Assembly (NCBI GenBank): GCA_052327205.1
Contig: CM126224.1
Coordinates: forward strand, 36,580,001 to 36,644,000
Length of the DNA stretch: 64,000 nucleotides
Origin: Somniosus microcephalus
Taxonomy: Eukaryota
Direction: 5' to 3'
How positions within the stretch are numbered: position 1 is the stretch's first letter; each line of letters opens with the position of its first letter. The notes under the pieces were generated by a model. The model made no database searches. It was not told the origin of the DNA and worked only from the letters and a program-made list of their open reading frames with translations. The position numbers and the translations under genes are program-made. Shown in pieces: positions 644-64,000 of the stretch.

Positions 644-749
644 TCCATTTGAATACATGATATTAGCGACCATTATTGCAAACTGCATTGTCTTGGCTCT
701 GGAGCAACACCTTCCCAATGACGATAAAACCCCCATGTCGGAGAGATTG
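644..749 (+). CDS. CACNA1A: Cav2 voltage-gated calcium channel alpha-1 subunit, coding exon 2 equivalent (domain I S1)
   Basis: Translates as (P)[35 protein letters not shown], the Cav2 IS1 segment. The exon is 106 nt, with an AC acceptor at 642-643 and a GTGAGT donor at 750-755. Confidence 0.95.
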
Positions 750-3414: not shown

Positions 3415-3903
3415 AAAGAACATAACATAAGAAATAGGCGCAGGAATAGGCCACTTGGCCCCTCGAGCCTGCTCCGCCATTCAATAAGATCATGGCTGAT
3501 CTTGGGCTCAAAGCCACTTCCCCGCCTGCTCCCCATAACCCCTCACTCCCTTATCTTGCAAAAATGTGTCTATCTTCACCTTGAATGTATTTAATGACCC
3601 AGCCTCCACAGCTTTCTGGGGCAGAGAATTCCCCAGATTTATGACCCTCTGAGAGAAGAAAATCCTCTTCATCTCAGTTCTAAAAGGGCGACCCTTTATT
3701 CTAAAACTGTGCCCCCCCCCATTCTCGATTTCCCCACGAGGGGAAACATCCTCTCTGCATCTACCCTGTCGAGCCCCCTCAGTATCTTCTATGTTTCAAT
3801 AAGATCACCTCTCATTCTTCTAAATTCCAATGAGTATAGGCCCAGCCTGCTCAACCTTTCCTCATAAATCAACCCCCTCATCTCTGGAATTAGCCTCGTG
3901 AAT
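3415..3903 (-). mobile_element. CR1 LINE, 5'-truncated
   Basis: Reverse complement of the ORF2 C-terminus and 3' UTR seen at ~37460-37944, with a terminal (TTATG/TTCT) repeat. Confidence 0.9.
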
Positions 3904-4561
3904 CAACCCCATCCAACTCTGTCCTGGCAATGTTTCACTCCGTGGCTTGAAACAGGAGCTGAGTTGAATAGAGGACGCTGTGTGCCTTCACCCCCACACC
4001 CTTATGGCACTGCGCATTACTGGCATCACTTTTGTACCACTCCGGTTCCTTCATGTTTTTATCAATGCAATGGTGTATTGAATAGCAAAACACTCAAGCT
4101 GGAGCATTTTATTGTTTGAAAAATTCTAACTGTGTGCTTCTTAAGAGATTTCAGTCAACTGCACAGCAAAAATCTATAATATCCTGTGGTACATTTTACA
4201 TATAGTACTTGGCAGTGTTATGCCACTTGTGCTGAAAGTCTACATCCTGGAAAACCAGTATAGTATTTTTCAATGAATAGGATCTGTGAAGGACCCTGAA
4301 TAAACAGCTGCATTTCACTTTATAAAAAAAAAAGAATTCATTGCAGCAGCACACCAACTCATGAGTAATTCATGATTTTACAATTTTCTTGTATGCAGAC
4401 CAGAAGTAACATGGTGGTTCAAACCTCGTCAGTGAGAACGGTAACAGTCTAGGTAATCTCCTGTTGCCACAAAAAGTGATGCTGCTGATGTATACTTCTC
4501 CTTGAAACAAATATAGTGATAGTGACTTTTTTAAGCACCTGACAACCTATTTATAATTAAA

Positions 4562-5337: not shown

Positions 5338-5512
5338 AAAGCAAAATATTGCGGAACACTGGAAATCTGAAATAAAAACAGAAAATGCTGGAAATACTCG
5401 AGCAAGTCAGGTTATTTTCATCGGCTCATCGACCGGAAACGTTAACTCTGTTTCTCTCTCCACAGATGTTGCCTGACCTGCTGAGTATTTTTAGCATTTT
5501 TTGTTTTAATTT
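5338..5512. mobile_element. Collapsed Penelope-type fold-back element, same family as 62563-63083
   Basis: Inverted arms at ~5375-5411 and ~5472-5507. Segment 5341-5374 resembles the reverse complement of 63038-63070. It retains the hammerhead 3' half GACC-GGAAACGTTAACT. Confidence 0.7.
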
Positions 5513-7588: not shown

Positions 7589-7765
<177 letters not shown>

Positions 7766-12987: not shown

Positions 12988-13894
12988 GAAACATAGAAAA
13001 ATAGGAGCAGGAGTAGGCCATTCGGCCCTTCTAGCCTGCTCCGCCATTCAATACGATCATGGCTGATCCTCTATCTCAATACAAGAAACTTTCTGGTATC
13101 CGGCACGGACGGGACCGACATGGTGCAGGTTCAGCAATAAAACCGAACGCTATAGTAAAAGATACAGAGCTCCGTATAAAGCAACAAACCCTGTTGCTTA
13201 GCAACAGCTTCAAAACAATGCCCACAAGTTGCAAGCATCTCTGTAGCTTAGCAACAGCTGCAGCCAAACCCTTGCCTTCCTCCATTTGTTGCTGTGCAAG
13301 TAATAAAAGTTACCTGAAACCGACTCCTGAATTTTGCCGGTTAACCGACATTTCCGGTTATTTAGGGGCCGGTTAATCAAAAGTTTCCTGTACCATTTTT
13401 CCACGCTCTCCCCATACCCCTTGATGCCCCTTGTGTCTAGAAATCTATCTACCTCCTTAAATATATTCAGTGACTTGGCTTCCACAGCCTTCTGTGGTAG
13501 AGAATTCCACAGATTCACCACCCTCTGAGTGAAGAAATTTCTCCTCATCTCAGTCCTAAATGTCCTGAGACTGTGACCCTTTGTTCTAGCACCCCCCTCC
13601 AGCCAGGGGAAACATCCTCCCTGCATCCAGTCTGTCTAGCCCTGTCAGTATTTTATACATTTCCATGAGATCCCTTCTTATTCTTCTAAACTCTAGTGAA
13701 TACAGGCCTAGTCGACCCAATCTCTCCTCATACAACAGTCCTGCCACCCCAGGAATCAGTCTGGTGAACCTTCGCTGTACTCCCTCTGTGGCAAGTATAT
13801 CCTTTCTTCGGTAAGAGACCAAAACTGTACACAGTACTCCAGGTGTGGTCTTACCAAGGCCCTGTATAATTGTAGTAAGACATCCTTGTTCCTG
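12988..13894 (-). mobile_element. CR1 LINE, 5'-truncated, interrupted by a MITE
   Basis: Minus-strand ORFs contain [23 protein letters not shown] and FRTEMRRNFFTQRVVNLWNSLP, followed by a CR1 3' UTR. Confidence 0.9.
13082..13390. mobile_element. Tc1/mariner-like MITE, copy 2 (nested in CR1 3' UTR)
   Basis: TA-CAAGAAACTTT ... AAAGTTTCCTG-TA. The CR1 sequence resumes on both sides. Confidence 0.88.
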
Positions 13895-23751: not shown

Positions 23752-25085
23752 TAACAAGGCCATAAAAAAGCAAACCAAGCACTGAGGATCATTTTTATAG
23801 GAATAGAATTGAAAAGCAGGGAAGTTATGTTAAACTTGTGTAGAACCTTGGTTGGACCACACTTGGAGTACTGTGCACAGTTCTGGTCTCCATATTACAA
23901 AAAGGATATAGAAGCACTGGAGAAGGTGCAAAAAAGATTTACAAGGATGATACCAGAACTGAGAGAATGGCCCGTATTTTCCGATCGCAGGCTTCCCGGA
24001 GGCCTGCGATCTGGAAAAATCTGCGCCCTTACCTGAGGGCTCCCGGGACGCGCACACTTCTGCTCCTGGGCCTCTCCAAACTCCAAGTGCACAGGGCCCA
24101 CGTATCCCAGGGGTGCAGACAGTTCGCAGCGTCCCTGGGATCACGGCCATGGGGAGCCAATCACGGAAGGGAAGACCTGTCAAATATATGAATGGAGATG
24201 AATGAAAAAACATAGTAAAACTTTAAATACATTTTTAAAAAATCACATTTTTAAAATGACTTGAAATTACAATAAACTATTTTAAACATTTTATTTTTTG
24301 AAGAAAAAAAATAGTTTTTTACAGGGCTAAAAATAAACTTTTTTAAAAGTATTTTTAAATGATAAATCAGTGAATTTTTTTTACTTTTTTCCACTCTTAT
24401 CCTGGTAAAAGCAGGCCTTACCAGGCGTAAGAATTGTAAGGGTTTTCTGCGGGCGGAGGGTCTCCAAAAAGCGGAACTATCCGCCCGCAGAGGCCCTAAT
24501 CCAGGGCAGCCGGAGGATCTGTCGAGACCATTCTTGACAGATCGGAAATGCCGGTTTTCAGCGTATGCGCTGTGCATGCCTGAACCCGCCATTTCCGATG
24601 TCCCTACGGGTGGGTACACCGCGCGTACACACCCGTAGAGATCGGAATATCCGGCCCATTATAATTATCAGGAAAGACTGAACAGACTGGGGCTCTTTTC
24701 TCGAGAAAAGAGAAGGCTAAGGGGTGACTTAATAGAGGTCTTTAAAATTATGAAGGGGTTTGATAGGGTAGACATAGAGAAGATGTTCCCACTTGTGGGG
24801 GAGACCAAACTAGGGGCTGTAAATATAAGATAGTCACTAATAAACCCAATTGGGAATTCAGGAGAAACTTCTTTACCCAGCGAGTGGTTAAAATGCAGAA
24901 CTTGCTGCCACATGGAGTAGTTGAGGCAAATAGCATAGATGCCTTTCAGAGGAAGCTAGACAAGTTCATTAAGGAGAAAGGAATGCAAAGATATGCTGAT
25001 GGGGTTAGATGAAGTAGGGTGGGAGGAGGCTCGTGTGGAGCATAAACACTGGCTGACTGGCCCATTTCTGTGCTGTAAATTTAAT
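23752..25085 (+). mobile_element. CR1 LINE, 5'-truncated, interrupted by a MITE
   Basis: The peptide PHLEYCAQFWSPYYKKDIEALEKVQKRFTRMIPELR continues after 24660 (YQERLNRLGLFSREKRRLRGDLIEVFKIMKG) and then runs into the 3' UTR. Confidence 0.9.
23969..24657. mobile_element. Harbinger-like MITE with AT-rich core (same family as 50711-51410)
   Basis: TIRs GGCCCGTATTTTCCGATC and GATCGGAATATCCGGCCC, with flanks AAT/ATT. It splits the CR1 ORF2. Confidence 0.85.
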
Positions 25086-28000: not shown

Positions 28001-29438
28001 TCATTTCAAATTATTGTTTAATATTTTTTAGCGGAATGTCAAGCCACGTGGCCTATTTAATAACCGAAGCAATGTTTTAGTGTTCAGTCAGCAGTGTCGA
28101 AGGTAAACATTTGATAATGGGAGTCTAAAACAAACAGGCAGGGTTTCAGGTGAACCAAATTAGTTGCCCAAGAGTCACCTTTGTTGACCGTGGTATTTAA
28201 CTCTAGGGACACTCCCGGCTGCATTGTTGTGGAGTTATTGTGGAAAGTATGTGTGTATATATTACAAGAAGTCCAATCTGTTCGGGTTAACAGATGGGGG
28301 AACTGACCGTAAATTCATGACGTATTTGCCATCCTTTTTTGAAGAACTGAGGTGGGGGGTGGAATTGAAGATTTATAAAAGGACATTGCATTGATAAAAG
28401 CAGTTCGAACCTGATTTTCTAGCATTACAAATATTTGTTCATTTTCTAATTCAAAACTGATTACGAGTTATAAATAGAATATGTTGGGGTCAGCAGGGTG
28501 ACGACATTAAAAAGTCTGTTTTTGTCCCATTTAATAGTGACCTGCATTTAGAGTCATGAGTTAGCCAAGCCAGTGGCAGCAGTGGAGATGCTTGAGCTGT
28601 TAGCAAGGACATCTTCCCTATTTTAACTTTACCGTTGGTTACTACTGCTGCACCATTTCCTTTTCAGCGCTTGCAATAACAAAATACCCTTGAGCTTTTT
28701 CTTTGGAATGTCAAGTACTTTTGCATCATCTTTTTTCACTCTAGCATAAAAAAGATTCCCATTAAGAACACTTGAATCTTCAGACAGGTTCTTTGTGCCT
28801 TGATATGTCTGTGCCGTTATTATGTGGCCAATTACACGTATGAAGCATTGGTCTTCAGTTCTACACAGATGATGGAAATTTACCTCTTTGGATAGTCGAG
28901 TACCTTTTTCAGCTTTCATAATCCATACCTATTTTCTCTCATCAAATGTTATATCCGTGTATGCATTGTGCCCGTGTAAGATGATTGAATATAATGGGAG
29001 TAGTTAGGAATATAAATTTTTTTTTAAATAGAGATATTTAGGGCCAGAACCAGGTGAAAAGAATAGGAGACACAAATATAATAAGTGGTTGGTGACACCA
29101 TCTTTGTATTCATTGGATCAACTTTAAAATTGTTTCCTTTTTGCTGCCAAAGTATCTTTGAAAAATAACCGAAATTCCTTCCAGTGGGAATGCAAACAGT
29201 TTAAGGTGTTATGTTGCGGTTTTGCAATTGGTAATGCATCTTCCACAATTCGTGTGAATTTTGCCAATGATTCTCTCTGGCACTATAATGCTATGTCATT
29301 TTCTCTTCAAACAGGATACTCTCTTTACTAAACTGTACAAGCACAGAGCTTTGATATCATTATTTACAAAAAAAATACTGAACTCCTGTAACCTACAGGA
29401 GATGAAATGATCTGACAAATTCTGCTTCGTTGCTGTGT

Positions 29439-30037
29439 TCTTTCTTAGGCAGTCCCTTGGAACCGAGGATGACTTGCTTCCACACTAAAAATGAGTTCTC
29501 AGGTGACTGATGAGTCCAATGTGGGACCTACAGTCTCTGTCACAGGTGGGGCAGACGGTGGTTGAAGGGGCGGGCGGGCGGGGTGCTTGTGTTGACGTGC
29601 GCTCCTTCCGCTGTTTGTGCTTGGCTCCTGCTTGCTCCCGGCGAAGAGACTCGAGGTGTTTGGCGCCTTCCCGGATGCTTCTCCTCCACTTTGTGCGGTC
29701 TTGGGCCAGGGATTCCCAGGTGTTGGCGGGGCTGTTGCACTTTTTCGAGGAGGCTTTGAGGGTGCCCTTGAAGCATTTCCTCTACCCACCTGGGGCTCTC
29801 TTGCCGTGTCGGAGCTCCGAGTAGAGCGCTTGTTTTGGGAGTCTCGTATTGGGCATGCGGACGATGTGGCCTGTCCATCGGAGCTGATCGAGCATGGTCA
29901 AAGCTTCGATGCTGGGGATGTTGGCCTGAGCGAGAACACTGACGTTGGTGCGCCTATCCTACCAATGGATTTGCTGGGTCTTGCGGAGGCAGCGTTGGTG
30001 GTACCTCTCCAGTGCTTTGAGGTGCCTGCTGTACATG
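29439..30037 (-). mobile_element. RTE-clade LINE, 5'-truncated
   Basis: Closely similar to 44840-45395. It has the RTE ORF C-terminus and an (AAG)-like tail. A possible TSD is GTTGCTGTGT / GTTGGTGTGT. Confidence 0.88.
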
Positions 30038-30435: not shown

Positions 30436-30595
30436 ACAGCATCCTGACAGAGAAGAGACCAGTTAATATTTCCAGTGTGACCCTTTGTCAGAACAAATGG
30501 CGTTTTTGGCCTCTCTTCTTTATGATGCTGATCGTGCTTTGTGTTTACAGCATTATCTGTTTTTATTTCAGTTTCCTAGCCTTCATAGTTTTTAA
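30436..30595. mobile_element. Degenerate Penelope-type fold-back remnant
   Basis: The left part resembles 62600-62660 and the right part resembles 63000-63070. Confidence 0.5.
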
Positions 30596-34993: not shown

Positions 34994-37854
34994 GTGGCCA
35001 CAGTAAATAATAATTCTAATAGGTCTAAGAGCGTTAAAAAAGCAAGCCTGAAGGCTTTGTGTCTTAATGCGAGGAGCATTTGTAATAAGGTGGATGAATT
35101 GGCTGCGCAAATAGAGGTAAACGAATATGATTTGGTTGGGATTACGGAAACGTGGCTCAAGGATGGCCAAGACTGGGAACTCAACATCCAGGGGTATTCG
35201 ATATTCAGGAAAGATAGGCAAAAAGGAAAGGGAGGTGGGGTAGCATTACTGGTTAAAGAAGGGATTAATACAATTATAATGAAGGATATTAGCTCTGATG
35301 ATGTGGAATCTGTATGGGTAGAATTGAGAAATACTAAGGGGAAAAAAACATTAGTGGGAGTGGTATATAGACCTCCCAACAGTAAGGTGGAGGTTGGAGA
35401 TGGCATTAAAAGGGAAATTAAAGAAGCGTGCAATAAGGGCACAGCAGTCATCATGGGTGACTTTAATCTACATATAGATTGGGCCAACCAAATTAGTAAC
35501 AATACTGTGGAGGAGGAATTCCTGGAGTGTTTACGGGATGGTTTCCTGGACCAATATGTCGAGGATCCAACCAGAGATCAGGCCATCTTAGACTGGTATT
35601 ATGTAACGAGAAAGGATTAATTAGCAATCTTGTTGTACGAGGCCCCTTGGGTCGGAGCGATCATAATATGATCGAATTCTTCATTTAAGATGGAGAATGA
35701 AGTCGTTGACTCTGAGACTGGGGTCCTCAATTTAAATAAAGGAAACTACGATGGTCTGAGAGGGAGTTGGATAGGATTGATTGGGGAATGGCACTCAAAG
35801 GGTTGACGGTGGATAGGCAATGGCAAACATTCAAAGACCGAATGGATGAGCTGCAGAATTTGTTCATTCCAGTTTGGCATAAAAATAAAACAAAAAAGGT
35901 GACTCAACCGTGGCTAACAAGGGAAATTAGGGATAGCATAAGATCCAAGGAGAGGACATATAAACTGGCCAGAAAAGGCAATAATCCCGAGGATTGGGAG
36001 CAGTTTAGGATTCAACAAAGGAGGACAAAGGGATTAATTAAGAAAGGGAAAATAGAATATGAGAGGAAGCTTGCAGGGAACATAAAAACTGACTGTAAAA
36101 GCTTTTATAGATATGTGAAGAGAAAAAGATTGGTGAAGTCAAGCATAGGTCCCTTGCAGTCAGAATCAGGGGAATTTATAATGGGAAACAAAGAAATGGC
36201 AGACCAAACAAATTCATTCTTTGGTTCTGTCTTCACAAAGGAGGACACAAATAACCTCCCAGAGATGCCGGGGAACATAGGGTCTGATGAAAGGGTGGAA
36301 CTGAAAGAAATCAGTATTTATAGGGAAATGGTGTTAGGAAAATTGATGGGACTGAAGGCTGATAAATCCCCAGGGCCTGATAATCTACATCCCAGGGTAC
36401 TTAAGGAAGTGGCCCTAGAAATAGTAGATGCATTGCTGGTCATCTTCCAGAACTCGATAGACTCTGGAACAGTACCCATGGATTGGAGGGTAGCTAATGT
36501 TACCCCACTATTCAAAAAAGGTGGTAGAGAAAAAGCGGGGCATTATAGACCAGTAAGCCTGACATCGGTAGTGGGGAAAATGCTAGAGTCTATTATAAAA
36601 GATGTAATAGCAGAGCACTTGGAAAGCAGTGACAGGATCGGACAAAGTCGACATGGATTTACAAAAGGTAAATCATGCTTGACTAATCTACTGGAATTTT
36701 TTGAGGATGTAACTGGTAAAATAGATAAGGGAGAACCAGTGGATGTGGTGTATTTGGACTTTCAGAAGGCTTTTGATAAGGTCCCGCATAAGAGATTAGC
36801 GTGCAAAATTAAGGCACATGGGATTGGGGGCAAGGTATTGACTTGGATAGAGAACTGGTTGGCGGAAAGAAAGCAAAGAGTTGGAATAAACAGGTCGTTT
36901 TCCGAGTGGCAGGCAGTGACTAGTGGGGTACCGCAAGGATCGGTCCTAGGACCCCAGCTGTTCACTATATACATTAATGATCTGGACGAGGGAATTGGAT
37001 GTAATATCTCCAAATTTGCAGACAACACAAAGCTGGGTGGGAGGGTAAGCTGTGAGGAGGATGTTGTGAAACTCCAGTACGATTTGGACAGGTTGGGTGA
37101 TTGGGCAGAAACATGGCAAATGCACTATAATGTGGATAAATGTGAGGTTATCCCTGTTTTTGCCACCAAAGTGAAGGCAGATTATTATTTGAATGGTAAT
37201 AGATTGGGAGAAGGGGAAGTGCAAAGAGACCTGGGTGTTCTTGTGCACCAGTCGCTGAAGGTAAGCATGCAGGTGCAGCAGGCGGTTAAGAAGGCAAATG
37301 GTATGTTGGCCTTCGTAGCAAGAGGGTTCGAGTACAGGAACAAGGATGTCTTGCTACAGTTGCACAGGGCCTTGGCGAGACCGCACCTTGAGTATTGTGT
37401 GCAGTTTTGGTCGCCTTACCTGAGGAAGGACGTTCTTGCCATGGAAGGAGTGCAGTGAAGATTCACCAGGCTGATACCTGGGATGGCAGGAATGACGTAT
37501 GAGGAGAGATTGTGTTGATTGGGCTTATACTCACTGGAGTTTAGAAGATTGAGAGGGGATCTCATCGAAACCTATAAAATTCTGTCAGGCCTGGACAGAC
37601 TAGATGCAGGAAGGATGTTTCTGATGGCCGGGGAGTCCAGAACCAGGGGTCATAGTCTAAGGATAAGGGGTAAGCCATTTAGGACTGAGATGAGGAGGAA
37701 TTTCTTCACCCAGAGAGTGGTGAACCTGTGGAATTCTCTGCCGCAGGGGGCGGTGGAGGCCAGTTCATTAAATATATTCAAGAAAGAGTTGGATATATTT
37801 CTTAAGGCTAAAGGGATCAAGGGATATGGGGAGAAGGCAGGGACAGGGTACTGA
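34994..37854 (+). pseudogene. CR1 ORF2 endonuclease/reverse transcriptase, disrupted
   Basis: Motifs CLNARSI, GITETWL, GVVYRPP, MGDFN, YRPVSLTS, YLDFQKAFDKV and [10 protein letters not shown] are present. There are frameshifts near 35595-35690 and TGA stops at 37456 and 37516. The catalytic FADD reads FADN (37015-37026). Confidence 0.93.
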
Positions 37855-39877
37855 ATTTGGATGATCAGCCATGATCTCATTGAATGGCGGAGCAGGCTTG
37901 AAGGGCTGAATGGCCTACTCCTGCTCCTATCTTCTATGTTTCTATCTTTCCCTTTCTCCCTCAGTCTCAACAACTAGTCATGGTCTATAGTACAAAATTG
38001 TTGTTAATTTGGCACTACTTGTCAAGCTTATTCACAGTGGAAACAGGACAGCTGTTGAGAAATGGAAAAGTAATGTCACACTGGTGCTGTTTGGAGGTTG
38101 GGGTCAGGTGGAGTATAGGGAGCTTTACTTTGCATGACTCGGGTGTGCTTGATACTAACACTGGGTGCCTGAAATGGGAAGAGTTCCATTACCCAGCATC
38201 AACACCCCTCCCCTTGATGAGCATTCTTTCCACTGATTGATTGTTTTTGTAAAGTTTGCCAAACAGTTTCTTGAGCAAGAGTATGTCTCCTCACGTCCAG
38301 GCCAGACCTTGGGACTATTCTACATTGGATTCCCCAATAATCAAATGCTTGGTGATGCAGTTGGTTGGGGCATAGACATTGAGTGGGTAGGATGTCAAAC
38401 CATCTTCACTATTCTCCACGCGATGTTTCCAATCGCAGTAGGATTCTGTTGGAAATTGTTGAGCGCAGACAGGGTGCAAAGTTTGGGGGAAGAAAGAAAA
38501 CTGGCGAACCACTCGAACATCTCCCTCTCACGCCCACCTCGAGATTGATTCAAGAGTAGAAGAGGTGGATATTTTTGTGCTTCGCCATAGGTTTTATTTT
38601 TGCAAAACTGACTCCTTTAAAGTTGTATGTCCTCCTCCATCATGATGATAAAGGATTATTCATTATAGCACTTGAAGTCCAGCTGCCACCTACAAAGTTA
38701 AAATCTGCTTTGAAGGTTATTGACAGATTGCATTTTTGATCATTTTAAAATAGGTTAAAATGAAGGGTGGTGATGTAGCTCTTAACAATGGTTTGTCATT
38801 GTAGTAGAGGGTTCCAAAGCATTTGTTCTCTACAACATGAAGTGCCCTTTAGTGGATGAACCCCTCTTGCATTGGTTTCTGAAGTGAGTGTTAAGTTAAA
38901 GTGGTTTTGTATTGCACTTAAGCAAACATACAAAGTGATGGGGACACTTGAAGCAGTTAAGCATTATATTTTTCAGTATGACCTGGGTGTCTCTGGCTCT
39001 GTGCCATCCATCTGTCTATGCTTGTGTGTCTGTGGAGATGTTGATATATATTTAAGTTTCAACATGAACTCTTTTGAACTGTCAACATCTTAAATTCATG
39101 AATGAGCATCTTCTGGGGGGTCAGAGAGGAATTATCCAAAATTCTATATTCTTGAATTGGTCGGGGTTTTTAATTGCTTCTCAGTTGATTTCATGGTTGC
39201 TGGTGGGTGGGAGGATTAGGGGTCATGGTGCTTAGTTAGTTGCAACATGATTTTATTGGACAGGCTCGATGAAACAGTTGGTCTTTTCCTGTCCATTAGT
39301 TTCATATGTTCGTATTTATTCCAGTTGTTTAAATTTTAGTGCACTCACATGACTGCTTGTTCCAGTTCCATTCAGGTGTTGTTTTCTATGTTCTTGTAGG
39401 TGGCAGAATGCAGGAGGCAATGTTTGAACCCAGGGACTTAATTCATTAGGGAAAAAGAACAGACAATGGTATTGATGTTATTTTCCCCTCCCACTCACTA
39501 CATGTCTCTGAGTCTTCCCTTTGTTGTGTTGTTTAACTCCTCCTTCGGTGTATGTCTCCGATGCTCAATGTCTTCTGCCTCAAAACTGATGTCCTCCTAA
39601 TGTCTCTCTTTGCTTACCTGTCTCCCTTTCCCTGCAGCAATGTCTCTATCAGTTTGAATTTCATACTCGCTCAAGAAATGCTTTTAGGAGGCATGGCAAC
39701 CTCGACCTCCATTTGAAACGAGGCTGTAAGGAAGGAGATCAGCTTTATAGCATTCCTGGAACCTTGCATTGTGACAGTGAGAGCAGGGAGGAACAGCAAT
39801 ACGTGAAATACTAATTCACCACCCATGTCAAAGAATATGCTCTTTTGTAAGAACAGCTATAAATACAAAATATATTA

Positions 39878-40677: not shown

Positions 40678-41893
40678 TAATAAAACCTGTACAAATGGAC
40701 ACCCCCAAAAAATGGCCACCTGCAAAAAATGGACACTTGTTGACAGTCCCAAATAACTTACATTGTAATAGATACAAGCTGCACCTTTGAAACCACGGAC
40801 GCTCGCAAATTACGAACTACGGGCAGCCTTCAATGCACAAGTCCGTTTGCAACTTAAAACCCGGGACATGCAGGTAAGTGCTAGGCAACAGCAGTTGGGG
40901 AAAAAAGCTGCATTTGTGGAATGGGGATCTCTTTACCGAAAATCCATAGCAGCAGAGAAACCGCTCGATCTCTGGGATTGAATGCGTGCACGGCTCTGTC
41001 CCAGGGATCGAGGGATTTCTCTGCCGCTATGGATGCTGGATAAAGAATTCCCAATTGCACAAAAGCCGGGGACTGCACCAGAATGACTGGTACTCTCGTA
41101 AAATGGGGCATGGTCTCCAGGGCACTGCCTGTAGATTATCTACATGGCAATCATTGCATTACATTTCCCACAGCCCCCTGCTCCTTGATGCCACCCGACC
41201 ACTGCCGCAGGGAGCTGTGACCACGTGGAGTGCAGTCTGGAGGGGGCTGGAGAGTCAGGAATCGTGGATGTCGACATTCAGGAGGGCGGCTGATCTGGGG
41301 GGGGGTGGGAGGGCGTGATCTCAGCATTTGGGGGGCAGGTCTCAGCACTCTGAGGGCATCTCTGAAATTGCGGGGGGCGATGGGGGCTCGGGGGAAAGAT
41401 GGAGAATGGGGTCTTGGAGCGAAGGAGAAATGGAAGAGAAGGGGACTAGGGCAAGAGAAGGGGACTAGGACTGGGGCTCAAGCGAGGGGAGGGTGGAGAT
41501 GGGTACCAGCATTCTCTGCAGAGCCATAAGCAGCAGCAACATCATGCAGTGGGAGCAGCATTGAGAGAGGAGCAGTCAGTAAAGTGGCAGAACCAAGGGG
41601 GCAGGGAAGAGGAAGAAGGTTCTTAAACTGAGGGCTATTAGACCGTGGGATCCTTCACCACATGTGGCTATTGAGGTAGAGATGAATACCAGATCCCAGA
41701 ATCAGGACATCCCTCCCTCAATGGAAAAGGACTCCAGGATGGCAATGAACTGGGAAACCCAACAAACAGAAAAAAATAGAACTGAAATTACAGGGCTCCA
41801 GAATTAGGCACAAGGCCAGGTGAGAGTGGAAAGAAGGAAGGTATGCTTGCTGATGTAAGTTCCTTGGGTGTCCCTAATTTACAGGTTTCACTG
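40678..41893. mobile_element. Tigger/pogo-like non-autonomous DNA transposon (~1.2 kb)
   Basis: The left end AAACCTGTACAAATGGACACCC pairs with the right end GGGTGTCCCTAATTTACAGGTTTCACTG-TA. The interior is G-rich. Confidence 0.6.
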
Positions 41894-44839: not shown

Positions 44840-45395
44840 TTTCTTCTCTTCTTAGGCAGTCCCTCGGAACCGAGGATGACTTGCTTCCACATTAAAAATG
44901 AGTTTGCAGGTGACTGATGAGTCCAATGCAGGACCTACAGTCTCTGTCACAGGTTGGGGCAGACGGTGGTTGAAGGGGCGGGTGGGTGGGGTGCTTGGAT
45001 TGACGTGCGTTGCCTGCGCGTGGCTTCCGCTTGCTCCCGGCGAAGAGACTCGAGGTGTTCGGCGCCTTCCCAGATGCTTCTCCTCCACTTTGTGCGGTCT
45101 TGGGCCAGGGATTCCCAGGTGTCGGTGGGGATGTTATACTTTTTCAAGGAGGCTTTGAGGGTGCCCTTGAAATGTTTCCTCTGCCCACCTGGGGCTCTCT
45201 TGCCGTGCCGGAGCTCCGAGTAGAGCGCTTGTTTTGGGAGTCTCGTATCGGGCATGCGGACAATGTGACCCATCCATCGGAGCTGATTGAGCGTGGTCAA
45301 AGCTTCGATGCTGGGGATGTTGGCCTGAGCAAGAACACTGACGTCGGTGCGCCTATCCTACCAATGGATTTGCAGGATCTTGCGGAGGCAGCGTT
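44840..45395 (-). mobile_element. RTE-clade LINE, 5'-truncated
   Basis: ORF 44947-45300 reads QLRWMGHIVRMPDTRLPKQALYSELRHGKRAPGGQRK..LKASLK, the RTE C-terminus. It ends in an (AAG)n tail. Confidence 0.9.
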
Positions 45396-58560: not shown

Positions 58561-59981
58561 AGAACATAAGAAATAGGAGCAGGAGTAGGCTGTTCGGCCC
58601 TTCGGCCCTGCTCCGCCATTCAGTAAGATCATGGCTGATCTTCTACCTCAACTCCACCTTCCCGCACTATCTCCACATCCCTTGATTGCCTTAGTATCCA
58701 AAAATCTATTGATCTCAGTCTTGAATATACTCAATGACTGAGCATCCACTGCCCTCTGGGGTAGAGATTCCAAAGATTCACAACCCTTTGAAGAAGTTTC
58801 TTCTCATCTCCGTCCTAAATGGCCGACCCCTTATTCTGAGACTGTGACCTCTAGTTCTAGATTCCCCAGCCAGGGGAAACATCCTCCCGGCATCTACCCT
58901 GTCAAACCCCTTAAGAATTTTGTATGTTTCAATGAGATCACCTCTCATTCATCTAAACTCGAGGGAATATAGCCCTCGTCTACTCAATATCTCCTCATTG
59001 GACAATCCTTTCATCCCAGGAATCAATCTAGTGAATCTTCGTTGCACTCCCTCTAAGGCAAGTAAGTATATCCTTCCTTAGGTAAGGAGACCAAAACTGT
59101 ACACAGTACTCCGGGTGTGGTCTCACAAGGACCCTATATAATTGTAGTAAGACTTCTTTACTCTTACACACCAATCCCTTTGTAATAAAGGCTAACATAC
59201 CATTTGCTTTCCTAATTGCTTGCTATACCTGCATGTTAACTTTCAGTGATTCGTGTACGAGGACACCCAGGTCCCTCTGAATACCAACATTTCCCAGTCT
59301 GTCACCATTTAAAAAATGTTCTGCTTTTCTATTTTTCCTACCAAAGTGGATAACTTCACACTTCTCCACATTATATTCGATCTGCCATGTTCTTGCCCAC
59401 TCCCTTAACCTGTCTATATCCCTTTGCAGCCTCTTTGCATCCTGCTCACAGCTTACTTTATCACCTAACTTTGTATCATCAGCAAACTTGGATACATCAC
59501 ACTTGGTCCTTCATCTAAGTCATTGATATAGATTGTGAATAGCTGAGGCCCAAGCACTGATCCTTGCGGTACACTACTAGATACAGCCTGCCAACCTGAA
59601 AATGACCTGTTTTATTCTTTCTCTGTTTTCTGTCTGTTAAACAATCCTCAATCCATGCTAATATATTGTCGCCAATCCCATGAGCCCTAATTTTTGTAAT
59701 AACCCCATGTGTGGCACCTTATCGAATGCTTTTTGAAAATCCAAATACACCACATACACTGGTTCCCTTTTATCTACCCTGGTAGGTACAACCTCAAAAA
59801 ACTCTAACAGATTTCTTTTTCATAAATCCGTGTTGACTCTTCCCAATCATCATATGATTTTCTAAGTGCTTTGTTATCGTGACCCTGATAGTAGATTCTA
59901 GCATTTTCCCTACTGCTGATGTCAGACTAACTGGTCTATAGTTCCCTGTGTTCTCTTTTCCTCCTTTCTTCAATAGCGGAG
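58561..59981 (-). mobile_element. CR1 LINE, 5'-truncated, with internal deletions
   Basis: Reverse complement of ~36500-37940. The ORF fragment reads TPLLKKGGKENTGNYRPVSLTSAVGKMLES..QHGF. Confidence 0.93.
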
Positions 59982-60910
59982 TTGAGGACCTTGGATACTT
60001 GCTTCCAATGGTTTCAGATGGGCTCAAAATGACAATTGATCAAACTTGTACTCAATAGTATTTGTAATATTTCAATTCTTTTTTAAAGAAGTTGTCCTGT
60101 TAAGATCAGATTGTTGCAGAATTGCTAATATGGAGATTTTATGATCCAAAAAGGTAGTTTTTTTTTACATCCACTGAACTCTGCTTGTCCCTGCACACAA
60201 TATGACTGCATTTCCCTGATGGCCACTGTCAAATGACAGATGCAATAGGCTCATTAATGTGCAGTTCACTGTCATAATTTGTTACTGAGTCAATTGAATC
60301 ACTCAAAATGCTTTTTGAAAATTGTCTGCTGTTTCTGCTTGGTAACTGAAATTCCTAATGTCATTGGCCAGGAAGTTGTACCCCAGCATGTCGGTGCCTT
60401 CAGGAGGTGATGATTGAAAAGCAAGACAGCAGTATGAACGTTAAAACTAAAAGATTAGACATCCAGAACAGACTATCATTACTGCACCAGGTTTTCTCCA
60501 CTTCGTCTTTTAAATATGGACTCTTTTATATAAAAAAAAAAATTAAAAAATTGATGCCTGAGTCTGACTGAAGCCTTTGTTTAGGAATCTAGGATGCAAT
60601 AGTCTTCTGGCTGGATTGGACTGAGGAGCCCAGCTCATGTGTACTAATCTTTAAATGGCCAGGATCTTGGTTCTTGAAGCTATATTGTTGTAGGCCAGTG
60701 GAGGGTTTGGCAGCCCAAATGTTTCTAATTGTAGTCCCCATTCCCCCCCACCCCCCCCACCAAAAAAAAATCAGATCACAGCAATTTTGCTGAGAGAATA
60801 ATTCGTGTGTTTGTTGCAATGGTAAGCTGGGTAAAAGGATTTAGCAACCAGATTAGAATAGAATCTGCTTTTGCTTATCTGAATTTTGCAGGAGCATCCA
60901 AAAAAATAAT

Positions 60911-61713: not shown

Positions 61714-62232
61714 TTGAATAATTTGCTTAATATTTCTGTTGTAAGCAAAAGGTCTGCTCTCTGTCATGGGAGAAATGCCTTGCTGAAGTGTCAGTAAAAC
61801 GTGCAGTGTGTAATGTTGTTATAACACCACTTGCTGATTTGCTTATTTTACAGTCTGTTGATGGGATTCGGCTGTATACAAATATTGATTCAAGTGAGCT
61901 AAATATAAGGTTACATTTAACCGGCGTCAGTGGTATGATGAGAGCACATATGGCCTCCTATTCACTGCAGCTTGAAGTCCTTTATTTAAATGCTTTCGTT
62001 ATGTTCGTTACGTTTGCAAAAGTCAGTAGAAAACTACTATAGATGCAGACTACCTGAAATCGAATGGGAATGTAATGAAACAGCATATCAATATGCAGAA
62101 CATAATAGATATGCTAGAAGTTGAATAATTTGCTTAATATTTCTATTTCAAGCAAAAGGTCTGCTCTCTGTCCTGGGAGAAATGCCTTGCTGAAGTGTCA
62201 GTAAAACGCGCAGTGTGTAATGTCATTATAAC
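61714..62232. repeat. 112-bp direct repeat (61714-61825 and 62121-62232) with a 295-bp spacer
   Basis: Both copies read TTGAATAATTTGCTTAATATTTCT..AAGCAAAAGGTCTGCTCTCTGTC.TGGGAGAAATGCCTTGCTGAAGTGTCAGTAAAACG.GCAGTGTGTAATGT..TTATAAC. Confidence 0.9.
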
Positions 62233-62562
62233 CCCCCCTGCTGTGCCTTGAGAGCGAGTCTTTCCGGTGTTTTCACTGAGCCAAAGTTACAGTTCCTTTT
62301 CCAACCTGTTCTATTTTTGTTGGAGTTTTTTTTTCTCACCTCCTTGACGTTTAAAAACTGGCAAGAAAGCCACAATGGATCAATACTTTAGTTCAGGTCA
62401 ATTTTTTGTTTTGGATTTATTTTTGTTTTGGATTTTATTAGCTATGAACACTACACATTTAATAATACATCTTGAATGCACTGGTCATTCCATAACTGAA
62501 AACAGAATCCTAGCAATTGTAGCACAAAAGGCGGTCCGTTGGCCCAGTGCATCTTAGCCAAT

Positions 62563-63083
62563 ATAACAACAGAAAATGCTGGAAAAACTCAGCAGGTCAG
62601 GCAACATCCGTGGAGAGAAATTTGAGTTGACGTTTTGGGTCGAACCCTTCTTCAAAACTGGAAAGAAAAGAAGATAGATCGGAGGCAGGGCTGCGATCGG
62701 ACAAAAGAATAAAAGAAACAAAAGAAGTAAAAGAGACAATAAAAGGTATTAGAAGCTAGACGAGATGGTAATAGGCTGAGATTAGGTGTAAAGTGTACTT
62801 GCCCTGCCAGTACACTACGCCTAATCTCAGCCTATTACCATCTCGTCTAGCTTCTAATACCTTTTATTGTCTCTTTGACTTCTTTTGTTTCTTTTATTCT
62901 TTTGTCCGATCGCAGCCCTGCCTCCGATCTATCTTTTCTTTCCAGTTTTGAAGAAGGGTTCGACCCGAAACGTCAACTCAAATTTCTCTCCACGGATGTT
63001 GCCTGACCTGTTGAGTTTTTCCAGCATTTTCTGTTGTTATTTCGGATTTCCAACATCCACAGTATTTTGCTATCGTACTAGTG
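62563..63083 (+). mobile_element. Young Penelope-type fold-back insertion (long inverted repeat) with 11-bp TSD
   Basis: Arms at 62563-62799 and 62809-63040 with a 9-nt loop. TCTTAGCCAAT is duplicated at 62552-62562 and 63084-63094. It is inserted in an old minus-strand CR1 tail (~62495-63300). Confidence 0.85.
62944..62978 (+). ncRNA. Minimal type I hammerhead-ribozyme-like motif (C3U variant)
   Basis: AGTT-[TTGAAGA]-A-GGGT-TCG-ACCC-[GAAA]-C-GTC-AACT. This gives stem I AGTT/AACT, stem II GGGT/ACCC, core boxes (C/U)UGANGA and GAAA, and a GUC cleavage triplet with a minimal stem III, the layout known from Penelope-like elements. Confidence 0.6.
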
Positions 63084-64000
63084 TCTTAGCCAATGATCGC
63101 TCTAAAACTGGAGCTGGCAACTCTCGTCCCATTTCTCTACTCTTTTTCCTTGCACCTTTTTATATTCTTCCTTCTCAAATACTTAACCAATTTCCTGTTC
63201 AGCGACGATGTAATCTCTGCCTCATTATCCACTTGTGGTAGAACATTCATGTTCTAATTACTAAATTCTTCTAACTTCTTCCTTCATTTCTCTAATGATG
63301 ATCCTTGACTCTGTCCCCTTGCTATTTGTAAAATGGTTCTGACGACATGCGGATGCTTCCTCAATGGGTGCTTACGCTGTGGAGTGGGGCTTGCAGGGAG
63401 CGCTGCTCGGGAAACTGAAGGCCCGTAGCCCCTGATTTTCCGTCTGTTTAAGCTGATGATTTCCCAACCAGTATTCCTTAAACGTGCTGCTCCTTGTTGG
63501 CAATGCTCAATTGGATAATCAGCCCTTACATGACTGCGTTGAGTACAACCTCTGAATTTAAGCAACAGATAGCAGGGTTCAGTTGTTAAGTGTTGCAACA
63601 ATATTATTAGAGTAAGTCTTCAACTTTATTATTTTACTTGGTGTCTGATTTTGAAATTGAGGCATCCATGTGATCAGCACAGGGATGCTGTAGGGTTAGT
63701 CCAAAATAGCTATTGGTCCCATGTCTCTCAAAGTAGGTGTACTTTAGGAAGAAGTACTGTCTCCTAAGAAGAAGGACATTTCCACACTGTGGGATGCAGA
63801 TCCTGCCAAACATCACTTAGTCCTCATTGTTGCATCATTTTTTGATTAGTCTGGCTACTTGCCTTTCATGAGCTGGGAGCCTGTCCTGAGATGGAGACCA
63901 TAGTAATGATCTTCACCATGATCACTGTACCTTCTACATGGAGCATAGACATTAAGCATTGTTATCAGCTCTCTCACTATTTGTGCTTTTATTGGCATTG

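What the first reader, a model, noticed from the sequence alone, without database searches (positions are those of the whole stretch)
62552..63094. Recent ~480-bp fold-back insertion carrying a hammerhead-ribozyme motif inside the CACNA1A intron
Seen: two ~235-bp arms (62563-62799 and 62809-63040) are near-perfect reverse complements, with about four substitutions and two small indels by my count. They enclose a 9-nt loop and are followed by a 43-nt single-copy tail, all bounded by an exact 11-bp TSD (TCTTAGCCAAT). There is no ORF and no terminal transposase-type TIR/TSD signature. Established: Penelope-like retroelements often leave inverted terminal segments and carry minimal hammerheads. 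Inference: this is a non-coding, Penelope-mobilised palindromic retro-element. In the channel pre-mRNA it would fold into a long dsRNA hairpin, a potential ADAR or Dicer substrate, and it could form a cruciform in DNA.
Basis: partly seen in the sequence, partly recalled or inferred. Interest (0 to 1): 0.75.

Follow-up and report, generated by a model that had tools for sequence, protein, structure and literature searches.

The report
Truncated Penelope retroelement fold-back insertion
This is a real 521-base hairpin-shaped insertion downstream of two calcium-channel exons, likely in an intron; it is most likely the broken-off end of a common Penelope-type jumping gene laid down in the already described 'inverted copy plus tail' pattern, with a ribozyme motif predicted to be inactive here, so it is ordinary.

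Summary
The fold-back is real: arms 62563-62799 and 62809-63040 are 96% complementary (4 substitutions, 2 indels), with a 9-nt spacer, a 43-nt one-sided tail and an exact 11-bp flanking repeat. The arm belongs to a high-copy repeat family whose coverage rises towards the 3' end and whose copies often end where the inverted arm ends. The 'loop' is ordinary family sequence. Two same-or-sister-species runs carry the filled right junction; a relative about 5% diverged appears to lack the insert. A minimal type-I hammerhead fold is present, but position 3 is U in both arms, the inverted copy has also lost G12, and the motif is buried in the hairpin (pairing probability 0). The layout (5'-truncated end, adjacent inverted 5'-truncated copy, tail on one side, 8-10-bp TSD) is published as typical of Penelope-like elements. 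I could not link the arm to an RT/GIY-YIG ORF. No editing or locus expression was shown. The host gene is a Cav2 channel, probably CACNA1A; the intron position is inferred. This scan already reported the same pattern on another genome (e1-7789271). Verdict: a new copy of a known kind; low interest.

The parts
62552..62562 (+). Left copy of the 11-bp target-site duplication
   Evidence: D16, 100% identical to 63084-63094; chance expectation 2e-4
62563..62799 (-). Inverted, 5'-truncated, tail-less copy of the repeat's 3' end (237 nt); carries the family-majority form at 5 of the 6 arm differences
   Evidence: alignment; tables 3-4 (family letters)
62625..62659 (-). Hammerhead-like motif of the inverted arm: U at core position 3 and G12 changed to A (62636); predicted dead
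   Evidence: descriptor scan; difference list
62800..62808 (+). 9-nt 'loop': the extra 5' sequence of the direct copy (family sequence), not a designed loop; 1-nt overlap (62799) at the head-to-head join
   Evidence: table 7, loose ends before 62816 in X1 (12 contigs) and X2 (4 contigs)
62809..63040 (+). Direct, 5'-truncated copy of the repeat's 3' end (putative pLTR part), 232 nt; five private changes
62944..62978 (+). Minimal type-I hammerhead fold: 4-bp helix I, core with U3 opposite G8, bulged A, 4-bp helix II starting G10.1-C11.1, palindromic CG in place of helix III, cleavage site after 62974
   Evidence: 2 hits in the 64-kb window, the two arms; 1 hit in 20 shuffled windows; features from PMC4209133
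63041..63083 (+). 43-nt single-sided tail; family sequence shared with other copies
   Evidence: family depth over 63046-63086; records aligned to 63081; matches at 5340-5411 and 30541-30593
63084..63094 (+). Right copy of the 11-bp target-site duplication
   Evidence: contigs X1 rec 8 and X2 rec 16 cross tail-to-flank
7625..7764 (+). Context: last Cav2 channel exon in the window (140 nt, AG/GT bounded); the insertion lies about 55 kb downstream on the sense strand
645..749 (+). Context: preceding Cav2 exon (coding part, approximate bounds)
5340..5512 (.). Second, older head-to-head insertion of a related repeat: inverted copy with tail (5340-5411), 17-nt filler, direct copy without tail (5429-5512)
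   Evidence: each about 83% identical to the main element

Best explanation
This is likely a single, heavily 5'-truncated insertion of a Penelope-like retrotransposon (PLE) end, made of a direct copy with its tail and an adjacent inverted tail-less copy between an 11-bp target duplication, and the hairpin is likely a by-product of integration with no function of its own. Inferred mechanism: the GIY-YIG endonuclease of an autonomous PLE nicked both strands 11 nt apart; one 3' end primed reverse transcription from the tail-end start site (giving 63083 back to 62800), the other primed from the inner start site (giving the copy that ends at 63040); both cDNAs stopped about 240-280 nt in and were joined head-to-head over 1 nt of overlap; repair duplicated the target. 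The arms were identical or nearly so at birth and have since drifted. The hammerhead is a passenger from the pLTR: predicted silent because U3 replaces C3, it has no helix III or same-sense partner, and it is locked in the 237-bp duplex. Shown: anatomy, family membership as a dispersed repeat, motif state. Inferred: PLE identity, priming order, inactivity.
For: Anatomy matches the published PLE layout: inverted 5'-truncated copy adjacent to the 5' end and a 30-40-bp tail on one side (PMC8557442 passages); inverted pLTR 37 bp shorter than the direct one, 31-bp tail, 8-10-bp TSDs (PMC3846280); paired minimal hammerheads on opposite strands 100-700 bp apart (PMC4209133). All minimal-hammerhead features of that paper are met but C3. 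Family behaviour: 24,161 and 20,161 contigs laid in X1 and X2; summed depth rises from 0.56 million (62800-62840) to 10.5 million (63005-63045) in X1 against 16.2 on the flank (not a copy number, but a 5'-truncation gradient); loose ends pile at 63041-63043 in all 4 runs, within 3 nt of where the inverted arm ends. In vitro a PLE protein nicks and extends both strands and starts reverse transcription at two sites that bound the tail (PMC11167929). The locus at 5340-5512 has the same tail/no-tail head-to-head plan with truncation points 42 nt apart. Helix I and II pairing probabilities are 0.0 in the whole element.
Against: No RT or GIY-YIG ORF could be tied to the arm (no genome; 0 hits), so PLE identity rests on non-coding anatomy. 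The two truncation points lie only 9 nt apart, which independent priming does not predict and snap-back does. The tail (43 nt) and TSD (11 bp) are slightly longer than the published ranges I read (30-40 bp; 8-10 bp). Five of six arm differences are on the right arm (binomial p about 0.2, hand computed), which could mean two templates or unequal error. The fold-back junction and the left junction were not seen in independent data.
Confidence: 0.85

Rival explanations
1. Same PLE origin, but the inverted arm arose by snap-back: one cDNA stopped at about 62800, folded on itself, copied its own strand as far as 63040, and the endonuclease resolved the intermediate, leaving the tail single. (Competes with twin priming inside the best explanation; confidence is for this sub-mechanism.)
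For: Truncation points only 9 nt apart with a 1-nt overlap; both arms share U3 and other non-majority letters such as C at 62924; PMC8557442 ascribes the tail to endonuclease resolution.
Against: The predicted cDNA end folds at 0 to -1.1 kcal/mol only; the inverted arm stops at a site where unrelated copies also end; the second locus has offsets of 42 nt plus filler.
Confidence: 0.4
2. The whole fold-back is a non-autonomous palindromic element copied as a unit, either by PLE enzymes or as a MITE/Foldback-type DNA transposon.
For: Near-perfect long inverted repeats and a clean TSD; the 62800-62922 part is abundant in X1/X2 and nearly absent in X4, so a young subfamily exists.
Against: Contigs with loose ends before 62816 continue in family sequence, not into a fold-back (12 in X1, 4 in X2); no opposite-strand joint near the loop among the 12 joints listed (though the laid stretch began at 62800 and may hide it); the right terminus has 43 extra nt, unlike a TIR element; depth gradient fits 5' truncation; no second copy of this junction in 64 kb.
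Confidence: 0.08
3. The insert has been kept because its pre-mRNA hairpin (ADAR/Dicer substrate) or its ribozyme affects the channel gene.
For: It lies on the sense strand downstream of a Cav2 exon and would fold into a very stable hairpin; present in both X1 and X2.
Against: About 55 kb from the nearest known exon; the family is extremely common; the arms have decayed by 4 substitutions and 2 indels with no compensatory change; ribozyme core degenerate and sequestered; apparently absent from a relative about 5% diverged.
Confidence: 0.04
4. Assembly or chimeric-read artefact.
For: Long palindromes are a known assembly problem for PLEs (PMC8557442); the central junction was not seen in independent data.
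Against: The arms differ at 6 places and each carries family-majority letters that the other lacks, so neither is a copy of the other; an exact TSD flanks the unit; single contigs of two runs cross the tail-flank junction with 29 element letters.
Confidence: 0.03

Closest known systems
Complex insertions of endonuclease-bearing Penelope-like elements (Penelope/Poseidon, Neptune, Nematis, Naiad): inverted 5'-truncated copy plus tail (PMC8557442; PMC3846280; PMC8969392)
   Same: 5'-truncated end, adjacent inverted copy head-to-head, inverted copy shorter by the tail, tail on one side only, short TSD.
   Different: No ORF at all between the arms (truncated inside the terminal part), so the result is a near-perfect palindrome; tail 43 nt and TSD 11 bp are slightly above the ranges read; clade not determined.
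Minimal type-I hammerheads of metazoan PLE pLTRs (PMC4209133)
   Same: 4-bp helix I, bulged base between 9 and 10.1, G10.1-C11.1, palindromic 15.2-16.2, no helix III; two motifs on opposite strands about 300 bp apart.
   Different: U3 faces G8 (neither C3-G8 nor the U3-A8 covariant reported there); helix II is 4 bp; the inverted copy lacks G12.
Poseidon_Ac (PAc) of Anolis, in vitro mechanism (PMC11167929)
   Same: Hammerhead upstream of two end points that bound a tail; AT-containing target; both strands can be primed.
   Different: No sequence comparison made (its GenBank supplement could not be read); the parts read do not model the inverted copy.
Animal non-LTR retrozymes (10.64898/2026.07.22.740005)
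   Same: Non-coding, pLTR-related, type-I hammerhead, present in a cartilaginous fish.
   Different: Retrozymes are same-sense tandem units that allow dimeric cleavage; here the two motifs are inverted and degenerate.
MITE / Foldback DNA transposons (recalled, no call)
   Same: Non-coding, long inverted repeats, TSD.
   Different: Asymmetric terminus, 5'-truncation gradient, hammerhead motif, variable junctions.

Membership tests
Penelope-like element (EN+) | ORF with telomerase-like RT and GIY-YIG endonuclease linked to this terminal sequence | tested here: inconclusive
   No ORF in the insert; no genome held; 0 hits (collections unlikely to hold this host) and 0 candidates
Penelope-like element (EN+) | Dispersed family with 5' truncation and shared 3' ends | tested here: met
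   tables 1, 2, 7; related copies at 5340-5512 and 30541-30593
Penelope-like element (EN+) | Inverted 5'-truncated copy adjacent to the 5' end | tested here: met
Penelope-like element (EN+) | 30-40-bp tail at one end only | tested here: met
   43-nt tail of family sequence; slightly longer than the range in PMC8557442
Penelope-like element (EN+) | Short TSD, single at the empty site | tested here: inconclusive
   11-bp repeat met; X4 record 23 leaves the reference at 63081 and runs on 950 letters, but these letters were not shown
Penelope-like element (EN+) | Partial tandem forming direct pLTRs | not testable with these tools
   Needs full-length copies; this insert is too short
Minimal type-I hammerhead ribozyme | Helix I, helix II, bulged base, G10.1-C11.1, palindromic 15.2-16.2, UH site | tested here: met
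   right arm
Minimal type-I hammerhead ribozyme | Intact catalytic core (C3-G8 or U3-A8; G12) | tested here: not met
   U3 with G8 in both arms; G12 to A in the left arm
Minimal type-I hammerhead ribozyme | Same-sense second copy for the dimeric fold; self-cleavage | tested here: not met
   Only two descriptor hits in 64 kb, on opposite strands; helix pairing probability 0.0 in the hairpin; cleavage itself not testable
Non-LTR retrozyme | At least two consecutive tandem units with complete hammerheads | tested here: not met
   definition
MITE / Foldback DNA transposon | Inverted repeats reaching both termini; copies with the same two ends | tested here: not met
   43-nt one-sided tail; other copies continue upstream of the loop
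CACNA1A intron | Flanking exons orthologous to Cav2.1 on both sides | tested here: inconclusive
   Upstream exon 46/46 to human Cav2.1 and 45/46 to Cav2.2; 17 of 20 chosen 1A-labelled vs 2 of 18 chosen 1B-labelled proteins within 2 differences over both exons; no downstream exon in the window

The most novel reading that the evidence does not exclude
The insert is an in vivo footprint of coupled, two-strand 'twin' priming by a dimeric Penelope-like enzyme: each staggered nick primes its own cDNA from one of the two start sites that bound the tail, both stop together, and the ends are joined. That would explain the long-unexplained inverted-copy-plus-tail pattern, and would make this young subfamily a large natural data set for the mechanism and a steady source of near-perfect intronic hairpins in its host.
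Probability: 0.35. Interest if true: 0.5.

Novelty: new member of a known kind. Interest (0 to 1): 0.2.

Why it matters
As a single locus it matters little: one of very many copies of a repeat, in a layout described for Penelope-like elements since at least 2013. Its use is as a clean example. How PLEs make inverted copies and tails is called undefined in PMC8557442, and young, ORF-less fold-backs with readable junctions, TSDs and arm differences allow snap-back and twin priming to be told apart by counting across a genome. A host role through dsRNA would be of more interest, but nothing here points to one.

Tried and rejected
Rfam scan: no hammerhead family among 10 matches; the 8 miRNA-precursor matches are below their gathering scores and reflect any long hairpin. 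No whole genome held, so no genome BLAST. Pfam scan of whole frames was not run (stop codons). ORF link: tail peptide of 45 aa found no candidate; two exact DNA patterns found 0 matches in viral and metagenome contigs; these blanks say nothing against a PLE. Sequencing runs: no RNA holder listed. RNA run X19 (same label as organism B, tissue unknown, about 24% read): 5,044 family reads on both strands, depth in 8 of 30 bins and 0 in 22 of the 23 bins from 63087 on, A>G places 6 against 6, 6 and 11 in the DNA runs: no verdict on expression or editing of this locus. Snap-back hairpin energy was negligible. No flanking repeat of 6 nt or more at the second locus. Supplement search of PMC4209133 found no shark entry in 2 files, file 1 not searched; supplements of PMC11167929 gave no usable comparison; bioRxiv supplements are closed. 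A search for 'twin priming' with 'Penelope' listed 3 papers, none on this topic by title or abstract start. Earlier findings by sequence and by place: none. miRNA precursor, retrozyme and MITE readings rejected for the reasons in the membership table.

Full report
Observation. The sequence at 62552-63094 is as described. The left arm 62563-62799 is the reverse complement of 62809-63040 at 96.2% identity over 237 columns, with four substitutions (right-arm 62819, 62877, 62967, 63011) and two indels of 2 and 3 nt. A 9-nt spacer separates the arms, a 43-nt tail (63041-63083) follows the right arm, and TCTTAGCCAAT flanks the 521-bp unit exactly; about 2e-4 such repeats are expected for 10 x 60 placements. 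As RNA it folds at -441 kcal/mol, z -46, with 0 of 100 shuffles as stable. The one ORF of 70 aa or more over it (62879-63241, stop to stop) runs into the flank, and its 45-aa part over the motif and tail found no homologue.

Host gene. A splice-site scan found an exon at 7625-7764 whose 46 residues match human Cav2.1 at 46 and Cav2.2 at 45. tblastn with 6 of the 120 listed homologues found this exon and one at about 645-749, and no later exon up to 64000. Over both exons 17 of 20 proteins labelled alpha-1A and 2 of 18 labelled alpha-1B (my picks from the 120) lie within two differences. So the gene is a Cav2 channel on the + strand, probably CACNA1A, and the insert lies about 55 kb beyond the last exon seen; that it is intronic is inferred. 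That the host is a cartilaginous fish is my recollection of how such repeats look and the wording of an earlier finding; no call tested it.

The arm is a dispersed repeat. No genome is held, so I laid four public runs on 62800-64000, which holds the loop, right arm, tail and right flank (likeness 88). Runs X1 and X2 (organisms A and B) match the flank at all but 1 of about 950 letters plus a 4-nt gap; X4 (organism C) differs at 43 letters and 15 gap positions over 63163-64000, about 5%. On the element 24,161, 20,161 and 10,528 contigs were laid in X1, X2 and X4. Summed depth in X1 rises from 0.56 million at 62800-62840 to 10.5 million at 63005-63045, against 16.2 on the flank; this is no copy number, but the gradient is what 5' truncation gives. 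In X4 the bins 62800-62922 have depth 0, 3.2 and 15.5, so this upstream part marks a subfamily largely confined to the A/B lineage. Loose ends pile at 63041-63043 in all four runs, within 3 nt of where the inverted arm stops, and at 63071-63074, where this copy's tail begins to differ; some records align to 63081. Only 24 of 858 loose-end rows, 40 of 99 variant rows and 24 of 55,568 pieces were shown.

The loop and the arm differences. Contigs with loose ends before 62816 (12 in X1, agreement 0.99; 4 in X2) carry the 9-nt spacer and go on upstream in other letters that share only the last T (62799) with the window. The loop is therefore the extra 5' reach of the direct copy. At 62819, 62877 and 63011 the family majority is the left-arm letter (99.7%, 99.6% and 94% of depth in X1); the 2-nt and a 3-nt insertion of the left arm are also seen in the family (246 of 288 RNA reads for the first). 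At 62967 the right arm keeps the hammerhead G and the left has A. Neither arm is thus a copy of the other as they now stand, which argues against an assembly artefact; five changes sit on the right arm and one on the left. Both arms share C at 62924, where T makes up 52-66% of depth in X1 and X2, and U at hammerhead position 3.

Filled and empty sites. One contig each in X1 and X2 starts at 63055 and runs unbroken to 64000, crossing tail, repeat and flank with 29 element letters (just under the 31 that the tool asks for a bridge). In X4 a 1,056-letter contig at flank depth (12.4) aligns only over 63081-63185 and runs on for 950 letters that do not fit the element, as an empty site would; those letters were not shown, so a single copy of the 11-mer was not read. 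The central junction lay at the edge of the laid stretch and the left junction among hidden rows; neither was verified. Arm divergence (4 of 232, about 0.9% per arm, hand computed) is below the 2.6% per lineage to organism C and above the flank difference to A and B, so the insert likely postdates the split from C and predates these haplotypes.

Hammerhead. Rfam gave no hammerhead match. A descriptor built from PMC4209133 (parts 1-2 of 4 read), relaxed at positions 3, 8 and 12 after I had seen the motif, hits twice in 64 kb, at +62948 and -62655, and once in 20 shuffled windows. The + motif has a 4-bp helix I, a bulged A, a 4-bp helix II opening with G10.1-C11.1, and a palindromic CG instead of helix III, as that paper describes. 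But position 3 is U opposite G8 (the paper reports C3-G8 and a U3-A8 covariant), and the - motif also has A for G12. The paper found single minimal motifs inactive and dimers weakly active; here there is no same-sense partner, and helix I and II have pairing probability 0.0 in the whole element (0.002 and 0.24 in the right arm alone). I predict no cleavage of the channel pre-mRNA.

Mechanism. PMC11167929 (parts 1-2 of 4) shows a PLE protein that nicks and extends both strands, starts reverse transcription at two sites bounding the tail, is predicted to be a dimer, and does not need ribozyme cleavage for insertion in vitro. In this insert each arm, read outward-in from its TSD, is exactly a first-strand cDNA: the bottom strand from 63083, the top strand from the equivalent of 63040. 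I therefore favour twin priming from both nicks (inference, about 0.55 within the PLE reading) over snap-back of one cDNA (about 0.4). For twin priming: the inverted arm ends at a common family end; the predicted cDNA end has no stable fold (0 to -1.1 kcal/mol); a second locus at 5340-5512 has the tail on the inverted copy, none on the direct copy, truncation points 42 nt apart and a 17-nt filler. For snap-back: the truncation points here are 9 nt apart and the arms share non-majority letters.

Comparison. [quoted passage not shown] PMC3846280 (parts 1-3 of 5) describes an inverted pLTR 37 bp shorter than the direct one, a 31-bp tail, 8-10-bp TSDs and an empty site with one copy. PMC4209133 notes paired minimal hammerheads 100-700 bp apart on opposite strands. 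PMC8969392 (passages) lists inverted pLTRs and short extensions as curation features. The bioRxiv paper 10.64898/2026.07.22.740005 (part 1 of 5 and passages) defines retrozymes as tandem units, which this is not. The insert works like, and is laid out like, a PLE end; the defining ORF link stays untested in effect (0 hits). Five paper searches listed no study of this family, which is no proof of absence. An earlier report of this scan on another genome (e1-7789271) reached the same reading after I had recorded mine; it is not independent support.

Host effects. RNA run X19 had 5,044 family reads of 16.7 million read, on both strands, 66% running on into unlike sequence, and essentially none on the unique flank; A>G places were no more than in DNA runs. 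The tissue is unknown, so this gives no verdict. Nothing seen suggests selection on the hairpin.

Verdict. Real, well bounded, and ordinary: a new copy of a known kind of PLE insertion with a degenerate ribozyme motif. Interest 0.2.

Noticed in passing
window 5340-5512: Older head-to-head pair of the same repeat end (about 83% identical): inverted copy with tail, 17-nt filler, direct copy without tail; no flanking repeat of 6 nt or more.
   Followed up: partly
window 30541-30593: Decayed tail-region fragment of the same repeat, 75% over 53 nt.
   Followed up: partly
window 40910-41066: Imperfect 158-bp palindrome (77% self-complementary), unrelated to the main element by blastn; possibly an old miniature inverted-repeat element.
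   Followed up: no
window 23977-24018: Short 42-bp imperfect palindrome.
   Followed up: no
window 61714-61836 and 62121-62243: Local direct duplication of 123 nt at 92% identity, 407 nt apart, just upstream of the insert.
   Followed up: no
window 63739: All three DNA runs (X1, X2, X4) have four extra letters here, so the window's haplotype has a private 4-nt deletion or an error.
   Followed up: no
table 5, 63043/63079: An opposite-strand joint between a tail-less end and a tail-bearing end in X1 and X2 (4 contigs each): another locus with a tail-to-tail arrangement.
   Followed up: no
window 36502-37940 / 58563-59982, 29438-29996 / 44844-45395, 13080-13894, 3424-3904: Dispersed repeats with reverse-transcriptase-like reading frames (LINE-type by recall, not tested); the 29438/44844 pair is 91% identical over 561 nt.
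   Followed up: no
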